Part shown: piece after piece, positions 55,156 through 57,207 of the stretch
Position numbering within the stretch: position 1 is the first letter of the stretch
Layout: the number at the start of each line of letters is the position of its first letter
Source: Ruditapes philippinarum
Taxonomy: Eukaryota
Direction of reading: 5' to 3'
Length of the DNA stretch: 64,000 nucleotides
NCBI RefSeq assembly: GCF_026571515.1
Contig: NW_026856121.1
Coordinates: 186,001 to 250,000, forward strand
Translations under genes and position numbers: made by a program
Notes under the pieces: generated by a model
Seen by the model: only the letters and a program-made list of their open reading frames with translations
What the model was told of the DNA's origin: nothing
Databases searched by the model: none

Positions 55156-55296
55156 CTAACGATAGATCAAACACGTACCACCAACAAGTCCACCACAATG
55201 TGGAGGACATCTACAATATGGCGGACGGCAGCTACAAGTTGACATCGCGACCAAAAGTCCAAGAGAGAAGAACGCTATTAATACTCTTTTGTTCAT
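55156..55296 (-). CDS. 46-aa secreted cysteine-rich peptide precursor (candidate defence peptide)
   Basis: MNKRVLIAFFSLGLLVAMST-CSCRPPYCRCPPHCGGLVGGTCLIYR*. A splice acceptor TTCTATAG lies 10 nt upstream of the ATG; candidate 5'UTR exon donor at ~56231 and TATAAA at ~56315; AATAAA at ~54976-54981 (minus). Confidence 0.7.
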   Translation of the reverse strand: MNKRVLIAFFSLGLLVAMSTCSCRPPYCRCPPHCGGLVGGTCLIYR

Positions 55297-57207
55297 CTTT
55301 AAATTCCTATAGAATAGAATGTAAAAAACAGTTATGCTATATATTATATGTAACGCACCTGCTATACATGTTTTCATCTTCATACATTTGTTAGCTGATG
55401 TATCATCGAATATCAAAATATATTGCACAGCGATTATGTTTTTTCTCAATTATGCAACTAATCTTTGACAATGGATCTTTGAAAGGGTAAAAAATGTTGA
55501 AATGGGTCAGATACTCTAACAAACGAACTGTTTCGTTGTGATGAAAGCAAGGGATATTATATTGCGTTCGCTTATTGGCATGCCGAGACCAATCTAACTT
55601 TGATTTACCAAATTTAAGTAATAACTTGATAAAATCTAAAAACATCATTATATTTGTAGAGTGGAACAATGACTGACTTTTTTTTGTTTGCAGGGGCATC
55701 AAGCTGAAAGGTGTCCGTTTTAAACATTTTGTTTATGAAATTGAACGTCCTTTTGCTGTCCTCCTCCTTAAGTCCTTTGCATAACGTAGAAATTAAGTTA
55801 AATGTGCTTGCAGAGAAACTACAGTTACAGTAATGTAACGTATATTCTTTCAGGGTAGTTCTATAAAGTTTGATAATTTATATGCAATTGTAAACTCTTG
55901 AGCATTTCTTCAATAATCTATCAAGATATGACATTATCATAATATTAGTTAAACACCTAAAAAACATTCAATTCAAATTAGTTATGTATTCATGAATATT
56001 TGCATATAAATTGTATGATTATTTGCCGTAACTTTCAGTGTTCTTCAGCGGTTTTATTAAAACATACAAATAGGTATAATTAGGTATGTGTTAGCAAAAC
56101 TAGAAAAATGTTCCGTATACAACTCTCCTCTATGGTATAATTTGTTGTCATGTGAGTTAACAATGTAGATTTTTTAATTTCAATTAATATCAGACATTAA
56201 TAAATATCTAAAATGTATCAAATAGCGTTACCTTCAGTGTTATCTAGTTATTCCTGTGTTTGTATTGCACTTTCAAAATAGAAAAAATCTATCTTAAAAA
56301 ACGCTTTAAACTTTATACACTTCGTTGTTGTGCATACATCGTGCATATGTAACAAATTCCTCAAATTTATATGGGATAAAAGTTTTGGTTGTATGTAGTA
56401 GATGAAAGTCGAAAACTGCCCAATATGTAAAATATTGATTTCATGAGTCTCGTAGCGCCTTATGAAATTCAATATTTTACTTATCGGTCAGTTTGAGGCT
56501 TATATCTTACTTAAATAACTACTTTTGCTATCAAATATCATGTTATCTATCAAAGCATTAGAAATAATGCATTTTTGTGCTAGAAATTATCTTTTTACTT
56601 GCAAATACCCTATAGGTAGCCTCTTGAATAATGAGATGTCCGTATCATGAAATTTTCGTGTTTTGAAATATGACCAATAATATACATGAACATAAAGATT
56701 TACACAAATTATACCAGTTACAAAAAATGGTGGACTTACACGCATCCAGTATACATCAATTTAAAATGGGGATTTTTACCAAAAAAAGTAAAATAAAAAG
56801 TTTTCAAATTTGTGGTAAATCTCTGATAGTTTGAATGGTTGACTGAGACAATTAATGGCCTTTAATGAGGATTTATACTGATTATTCAGTGTAAAATGAT
56901 ATTTTGTGAGACTTTATTTTACTTGACATGCTTCCCACAACTATCACCAGATCACGCATGTAAATTGTGTTTTTGTGATTTTTTTTTATATTTACGCAAC
57001 AAAATCATACTTTCTAATTTTTGATTTAATATTTGTCATACCACAAGAGTTCGAAATGTTTCTATGTAAAAGTCAAAATATATGTAGACAAATATAAACG
57101 CTTTTGTTTATTTATTTTCTCTGTTACGTTTATTTGAAAAGTTGAACAAACTGAAACATCACGTACATACAATCAGGTATGATTGTAAACTAAATGTATG
57201 TACATGT

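What the first reader, a model, noticed from the sequence alone, without database searches (positions are those of the whole stretch)
55156..56320. Small secreted six-cysteine peptide with an unfamiliar framework
Seen: the longer ORF call hides a 46-aa precursor with a clear signal peptide and the predicted mature peptide CSCRPPYCRCPPHCGGLVGGTCLIYR (C-x-C-x4-C-x-C-x3-C-x7-C, three Arg, no acidic residue). It has TATA, a 5'UTR intron and a polyA signal in plausible positions. The spacing does not match the CS-alpha-beta defensin, mytilin, myticin or big-defensin arrays as I recall them. Inference: a new disulfide-rich cationic defence or toxin-like peptide that annotation pipelines would miss because of its size.
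Basis: partly seen in the sequence, partly recalled or inferred. Interest (0 to 1): 0.7.

Follow-up and report, generated by a model that had tools for sequence, protein, structure and literature searches.

The report
Unannotated disulfide-ring secreted peptide family
The proposed six-cysteine peptide comes from reading into an intron; the real, spliced gene encodes a 78-residue, likely secreted precursor of an unannotated multigene family whose members would release small proline-rich disulfide-ring peptides, possibly used in defence.

Summary
The 46-aa ORF exists, but it is exon 2 read into intron 2. RNA joints (2 of 4 raw-read runs, 4 of 4 contig runs) show a four-exon minus-strand gene. 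The sixth Cys, the last seven codons, the stop and the nearest AATAAA are intronic. The spliced precursor has 78 aa: a predicted signal peptide (1-21), two Cys-Pro-Pro rings (four Cys), a linker, a conserved TNHI-x-x-IIKRE block with a dibasic site, and an acidic tail. The predicted mature part (22-58) has net charge +1, so it is neither six-Cys nor cationic. It belongs to a birth-and-death family: 21 exon-2 copies on 10 contigs (9 intact, 9 broken, 3 incomplete), most with one ring. No Pfam, PDB or full-length protein match and no paper with its motifs was found, and the scan's notes hold no look-alike on other DNA. The layout resembles mussel myticalins, but membership fails (Cys present, not cationic). 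Function is inferred: most likely a secreted mucosal or defence peptide; a signalling peptide is the main rival. Tissue and activity are untested.

The parts
56312..56317 (-). TATAAA box (likely promoter)
   Evidence: Sequence. Contigs of X1 and X8 begin near 56285-56287, but those of X10 and X13 reach 56325 and 56367; contigs cannot show a start.
56232..56287 (-). Exon 1, non-coding; 5' end approximate
   Evidence: Joint 56231/55305 in X23 (5 reads), X24 (3 reads) and 4 of 4 contig runs
55307..56231 (-). Intron 1 (5'UTR), 925 nt, GT..AG
55179..55306 (-). Exon 2: ATG at 55296, codons 1-39 plus one base
55234..55296 (-). Predicted signal peptide, residues 1-21 (basic n-region, hydrophobic core, Ser-Thr-Cys end)
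   Evidence: Hydropathy; position 21 is Cys or Gly in 7 of 7 intact non-redundant models. Cleavage site inferred; SignalP not available.
55195..55233 (-). Residues 22-34: two tandem Cys-Pro-Pro rings (Cys23/28, Cys30/34); likely from a 21-nt internal duplication
   Evidence: About 21 nt are absent from all other paralogs in the alignment except the identical copy; the two units match at 14 of 21 nt. Disulfide pairing is inferred.
54515..55178 (-).
   Evidence: Joint 54514/55179; positions
54449..54514 (-). Exon 3, 66 nt, phase 1-1: Ser/Gly linker and conserved TNHI-x-x-IIKRE block; Lys59-Arg60 at 54458-54453
54213..54448 (-). Intron 3, 236 nt, GT..AG
   Evidence: Joint 54212/54449 in X23 (11 reads), X24 (1 read) and one contig of X10
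53920..54212 (-). Exon 4: acidic tail, stop TGA 54162-54160, 3'UTR, AATAAA 53925-53920; 3' end approximate
   Evidence: the X1 contig runs on to 53720

Best explanation
This is a spliced four-exon gene for a 78-residue precursor that is likely secreted, likely cut after residue 21 and at Lys59-Arg60, and would release a roughly 37-residue peptide with two predicted proline-rich disulfide rings that possibly acts as a mucosal or defence effector. Shown: exon structure, spliced transcripts of this coding sequence, and a family of 21 exon-2 copies with conserved signal and dibasic block around a variable ring and linker. Inferred steps: (1) signal peptidase cuts after Cys21, leaving an even number of Cys in all 7 intact non-redundant models; (2) neighbouring Cys pair within each Cys-Pro-Pro unit; (3) a prohormone convertase cuts at the KR and a carboxypeptidase trims it, as predicted for myticalins; (4) the variable ring-plus-linker binds a microbial or host target, and repeated duplication and loss vary it. 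Because the peptide is near neutral, binding to a specific target is more likely than membrane lysis.
For: Splice joints; a 607-nt contig of X10 spans all four exons. Family: 21 exon-2 hits on 10 contigs; 9 intact, 9 broken in exon 2, 3 without their own exon 3 or 4. Amino-acid identity over 7 intact models: signal 0.68, ring 0.43, linker 0.41, core 0.82, tail 0.46. Conserved signal + variable middle + dibasic site + extension, with pseudogenes, is the layout described for mussel myticalins (PMC5577615, passages). A paralog matching L027 has about 1,300-1,400 reads over the shared block in X24 and about 150 in X23, which fits a bulk secretory product.
Against: Net charge of the predicted mature parts is -1 to +3 (pI 5.4-9.4), +1 here, unlike cationic AMPs. 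The ring shows no excess of amino-acid change (pN/pS 0.67; linker 1.33; non-independent pairs, few codons). L026 has no Cys after residue 21 yet is intact. The most conserved part is the block before the KR, so it could be the active part. Tissue and induction are unknown because the runs are coded. All diagnostic 3'UTR indels seen in RNA match the second copy (L032), so expression of the window copy itself is not shown. No peptide-level evidence.
Confidence: 0.42

Rival explanations
1. The family encodes signalling peptides (paracrine hormone, neuropeptide or pheromone): a small disulfide ring released at a dibasic site binds a receptor, and paralog diversity encodes identity.
For: Signal + single small ring + KR site and near-neutral charge. 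One-disulfide peptides acting on receptors or channels are known in molluscs (conopressins, contryphans; PMC5100318, passages). Residues 51-65 are mildly amphipathic (453 of 10,000 shuffles reach the moment; 156 to 1,262 for other spans).
Against: No amidation Gly follows the ring or precedes the KR in the intact models. Nine of 21 copies are broken, and no relative outside this family was found. That neuropeptide genes are usually few and widely conserved is recalled, not tested.
Confidence: 0.25
2. The product is a structural or matrix additive (mucus, byssus, periostracum or shell), cross-linked through its Cys and cut at the KR on secretion.
For: Very high read counts for paralogs in X24; Gly-Pro-Pro triplets and Lys-rich tails in the L023-L027 subfamily.
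Against: The products are very short, with no Tyr/Dopa-type repeats and only one to three Gly-X-Y triplets; the window gene has none.
Confidence: 0.15
3. The rings are miniature protease-inhibitor loops, with Arg24 or Arg29 as the specificity residue.
For: Rigid Pro-Pro rings flanked by Arg or Lys in several paralogs; variable ring residues.
Against: No Pfam or PDB match. The rings hold only 3-4 residues between the Cys; canonical inhibitor loops being longer is recalled. One intact paralog lacks the ring.
Confidence: 0.12
4. The first reader's 46-aa, six-Cys cationic peptide is made from an intron-retaining transcript.
For: The ORF is open to a stop, and a low signal lies over 55052-55172 in X24 (depth 0.19), X21 (0.38) and X1 (0.31).
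Against: Depth there is 0 in X22, X23, X8, X10 and X13, against 9.5 (X23) and 4.9 (X24) on exon 2. The read-through behind the donor varies from 6 to over 20 residues among paralogs. The Cys codon lies just behind the conserved donor sequence.
Confidence: 0.03

Closest known systems
Myticalins and modiocalins of mussels (PMC5577615, PMC12294457; passages read)
   Same: Tripartite precursor: conserved signal, variable central peptide, Lys-Arg site, C-terminal extension; non-coding first exon with the intron just before the ATG; phase-1 introns; multigene family with pseudogenes.
   Different: Myticalins lack Cys, have pI above 11 and three exons with the KR in exon 2. This family has 0-4 Cys, pI 5.4-9.4, four exons with the KR in exon 3, and a tail that is not always acidic. 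The signal peptide does not resemble the published consensus.
MgCRP-I / CRP-I of Mytilus (PMC4558851; passages read)
   Same: Four exons, short secreted Cys peptides, dibasic site, many paralogs and pseudogenes, function unresolved.
   Different: CRP-I is pre-pro-mature with C(X3-6)C(X1-7)CC(X3-4)C(X3-5)C after the KR. Here the Cys lie before the KR, there is no CC pair, and there are at most four.
Contryphans of cone snails (PMC5100318; passages read)
   Same: Single small Pro-containing disulfide ring; the paralog in L025 shares four letters (QPYC) with contryphan-Tx.
   Different: The contryphan motif is C-O-(D-W/L)-X-P-W-C with five residues between the Cys and a C-terminal amide. Here there are 3-4 residues, no Trp and no amidation signal, and the ring sits directly behind the signal peptide. 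Treated as a chance resemblance.
Clam defensins MCdef/VpDef and big defensin VpBD (table in PMC5484132)
   Same: Small Cys-containing peptides of clams.
   Different: Six to eight Cys in defensin arrays; no Pfam defensin match here.

Membership tests
Myticalin/modiocalin | Signal peptide, central mature peptide, dibasic site, C-terminal extension | tested here: met
   Layout of the spliced models; the cleavages themselves are predicted
Myticalin/modiocalin | Mature peptide without Cys | tested here: not met
   4 Cys here, 2 in five other models, 0 in one
Myticalin/modiocalin | Mature peptide pI above 11, more than 10% Arg | tested here: not met
   pI 7.7 and 2 Arg in 37 residues here; family 5.4-9.4
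Myticalin/modiocalin | Three exons, KR encoded in exon 2 | tested here: not met
   Four exons, KR in exon 3
Myticalin/modiocalin | Gill-specific expression and antibacterial activity | not testable with these tools
   Runs are coded; no assay possible
MgCRP-I | C(X3-6)C(X1-7)CC(X3-4)C(X3-5)C array | tested here: not met
   Cys at 21, 23, 28, 30, 34 only
MgCRP-I | Pro-region ending in KR before the Cys-rich peptide | tested here: not met
   The Cys lie directly behind the signal; the KR follows them
CS-alpha-beta defensin / mytilin / myticin / big defensin | Six or eight Cys array and profile match | tested here: not met
   0 Pfam families at E up to 10 for the ORF; 0 PDB sequence matches; four Cys after the likely cut
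Contryphan | C-O-(D-W/L)-X-P-W-C ring with C-terminal amide | tested here: not met
   3-4 residues between the Cys, no Trp, no amidation Gly plus basic stop behind the ring
Amphipathic alpha-helical AMP | Cationic amphipathic helix | tested here: inconclusive
   Hydrophobic moment only mildly above shuffles; net charge +1; no structure predicted

The most novel reading that the evidence does not exclude
A new, lineage-restricted class of bivalve secreted peptides built on a minimal disulfide ring (Cys-x-Pro-Pro-x-Cys or Cys-Pro-Pro-x-Cys) joined to a conserved amphipathic helix that ends at a convertase site. They would act as specific ligands (defence effectors or pheromones) rather than cationic membrane disruptors, and this gene has doubled its ring by a 21-nt internal duplication.
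Probability: 0.3. Interest if true: 0.7.

Novelty: new variant of a known kind. Interest (0 to 1): 0.42.

Why it matters
PMC12294457 (passages) states that studied bivalve defence peptides are almost all Cys-rich compact folds, with few linear exceptions and no amphipathic-helical ones. An abundantly transcribed, unannotated family of about 20 genes with a one-ring scaffold would add a new peptide architecture, and it is cheap to test because the peptides are short. The case is also a caution: the three database relatives found are the same kind of intron read-through, so single-exon ORF calls in this family give a false extra Cys.

Tried and rejected
Six-Cys framework: rejected by RNA joints. 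Pfam: 0 families for both ORF versions; for exon 3 and two paralog exons only one sub-threshold hit, RepA1_leader at E 0.08, dismissed. PDB sequences: 0. Word-index search with the 46-aa ORF: no candidate. With alignment A2: 3 hits among 54 candidates at 12-81 aa, none among 7,998 longer candidates (weak evidence). HMMER over 1.84 billion representatives: 6 hits; three are JGI/IMG 'hypothetical' read-through ORFs of this family, P0005 and P0007 are unrelated repeat-rich proteins, and P0006 (1,524 aa, 17-position match) was not inspected. All these queries held exon 2 only, mostly signal peptide, so distant relatives may be missed. ESM Atlas: best score 0.82 for exon 2, no usable hit for exon 3; no evidence either way. 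Metagenome scans: 156 pattern matches, none confirmed; 0 for the exon-3 pattern; records of this genome may be left out there. The look-up of sequencing runs listed no holder on record as RNA; 8 of 24 listed runs were laid. X21 and X22 gave no joints and scattered low cover; not read as evidence on tissue. Exon 2 of the C15486 copy was not found in 30 kb fetched. Positive selection on the ring: not supported. No structure was predicted, because only single exons could be submitted and exon 2 is half signal peptide. Paper searches: six motifs in 0 papers; searches listed no paper on this family by title or abstract start; subscription papers and supplements were not covered.

Full report
Observation. 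It is not chance: such an ORF occurs once in the window and in 0 of 100 block shuffles. A search of the own genome gave 14 matches. Their DNA alignment showed a conserved TG|GTA at codon 40, followed by AT-rich sequence with indels. The read-through behind it runs from 6 to more than 20 residues with no shared stop. That is the pattern of a splice donor.

RNA test. I laid 8 of the 24 runs listed. In raw RNA reads, three GT..AG introns appear on the minus strand. They are 56231..55307 (X23 5 reads, X24 3), 55178..54515 (X23 5, X24 4) and 54448..54213 (X23 11, X24 1). X21 and X22, from another study, show no joint and only scattered low cover. In contigs of four more runs from four studies (labelled 'RNA?' by the tool), introns 1 and 2 are skipped in 4 of 4 and intron 3 in 1 of 4; the other three have a loose end matching the end of exon 3. 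One 607-nt contig spans all four exons. So the sixth Cys, the third Arg, the stop and the nearest AATAAA are intronic.

The real product. The spliced frame has 78 residues: Cys at 21, 23, 28, 30 and 34, eight acidic and eleven basic residues, Lys59-Arg60, and a stop at 54162-54160. Residues 5-18 are hydrophobic. Position 21 is Cys or Gly in all 7 intact non-redundant models, and a cut behind it leaves 4, 2, 2, 2, 2, 0 and 2 Cys. I therefore infer that Cys21 is the last residue of the signal peptide; SignalP could not be run. Residues 22-58 would be the mature peptide, net charge +1, pI 7.7, followed by an 18-residue tail of charge -2. The two Cys-Pro-Pro units match at 14 of 21 nt, and other paralogs lack about 21 nt here, so the second ring likely arose by internal duplication.

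The family. Profiles run over the window and 28 fetched stretches found 21 exon-2 copies and one fragment on 10 contigs, plus an exon-3/4-only locus on C15486; this is a lower bound. Nine are intact through exons 2-4 (eight, L028 completed). Nine have a stop, frameshift or lost ATG in exon 2, and three lack their own exon 3 or 4. Some copies may be alleles and some frameshifts assembly errors. Over 7 intact models, amino-acid identity is 0.68 in the signal, 0.43 in the ring, 0.41 in the linker, 0.82 in the TNHI-x-x-IIKRE block and 0.46 in the tail; pN/pS is 0.40, 0.67, 1.33, 0.49 and 0.93. The pairs are not independent and the regions are short, so positive selection is not shown. Loose read ends match paralogs L027, L019/L020 and L015. 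About 1,500 reads in X24 and 180 in X23 cover the shared block, against a depth of 5-10 on this gene's exon 2, so other members are far more abundant in those two runs.

Which copy is expressed. A second copy with an identical coding sequence lies 48.7 kb away (L002/L032), inside a block of about 40 kb that is collinear with the window at 80-95% identity. It may be the other haplotype or an old tandem duplication. The 3'UTR indels seen in the RNA all match L032, while X13 has window-type letters at 56267 and 56274 in exon 1. The splice sites are the same in both copies, so the structure holds for both, but expression of the window copy as assembled is not shown.

Relatives and literature. No Pfam family, PDB sequence or Atlas hit above 0.82 was found. 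Protein searches found only three JGI/IMG 'hypothetical' ORFs of this family, each with the same read-through, and nothing longer. These searches used exon 2 alone, so distant relatives can be missed. Six family motifs occur in 0 papers of the library. Six topic searches (listings and abstract starts seen) showed no paper on it. I read passages, not whole texts, of PMC5577615, PMC12294457, PMC4558851, PMC5484132, PMC11767717 and PMC5100318, and no supplements, where unnamed transcripts could be listed. The scan's notes hold nothing near this place or like its sequence. Notes on other pieces call the genome Manila clam; I did not test this.

How it likely works. Shown: splicing, expression of this coding sequence, family structure. 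Inferred: entry into the secretory path, a cut after residue 21, closure of two small rings, a convertase cut at the KR, and release of a near-neutral peptide of about 37 residues whose ring and linker vary between paralogs. This works like a myticalin in layout and in birth-and-death evolution, but it is not one: it has Cys, is not cationic and has four exons. It is not CRP-I, a defensin or a contryphan either (membership table). I put a mucosal or defence role at 0.42, acting by binding a target rather than by lysing membranes. Against the defence reading stand the low charge, the lack of a selection signal on the ring, one intact Cys-free paralog, and the fact that the best conserved part is the block before the KR, which is only mildly amphipathic.

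Verdict. The gene is real and the family appears undescribed in what I could search, but the headline framework is an artefact. It is a new variant of a known kind of secreted peptide precursor; interest 0.42.

Noticed in passing
window 18781-58162 against L029-L032 (G000:C4608:258-291 kb): About 40 kb collinear block at 80-95% identity on the same contig; either both haplotypes assembled in tandem or an old segmental duplication.
   Followed up: partly
L026:3471 onward (G000:C7707): Intact paralog with no Cys after residue 21 and three Gly-X-Pro triplets at the start of exon 3.
   Followed up: partly
L027:5766 - strand (G000:C9138): Paralog matching 1,318-1,376 loose read ends in X24 and 150-157 in X23; the best target for peptide work.
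   Followed up: partly
L015:4620-4980 and L035:5616-2040: Subfamily with a long intron 2 (about 3.2 kb in L035, with transposon-like sequence by eye); L015-type exon 3 appears in contigs of X1 and X13, but its exon 2 was not found.
   Followed up: partly
contigs of X1 and X10, loose ends at 54449 and 54482: Some loose-end consensus strings (agreement 0.7-0.9) match none of the 12 loci printed; they may be paralogs absent from this assembly or mixtures.
   Followed up: no
window 56400-56507, 46514-46620, 16537-16675: Imperfect palindromes of 107-139 nt, MITE-like; the first lies just upstream of exon 1 and attracts divergent reads from other copies.
   Followed up: no
window 15073-16310: Tandem array of a 40-nt unit, about 27 or more copies at 80% match.
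   Followed up: no
window 32743-34788 - strand: Broken DDE transposase (PF03184, E 3e-11 on 33584-33913) with flanking ORF pieces.
   Followed up: no
window 2092-2940, 5270-6046, 16681-17031, 40445-40852: Exon-like ORFs: weak NHL, weak HEPN_DZIP3, PAN_1 above cut-off, and a signal-plus-coiled-coil-like start.
   Followed up: no
window 6534-6962 and 24731-25084: Reverse-transcriptase remnants (zf-RVT, RVT_1; below cut-off).
   Followed up: no
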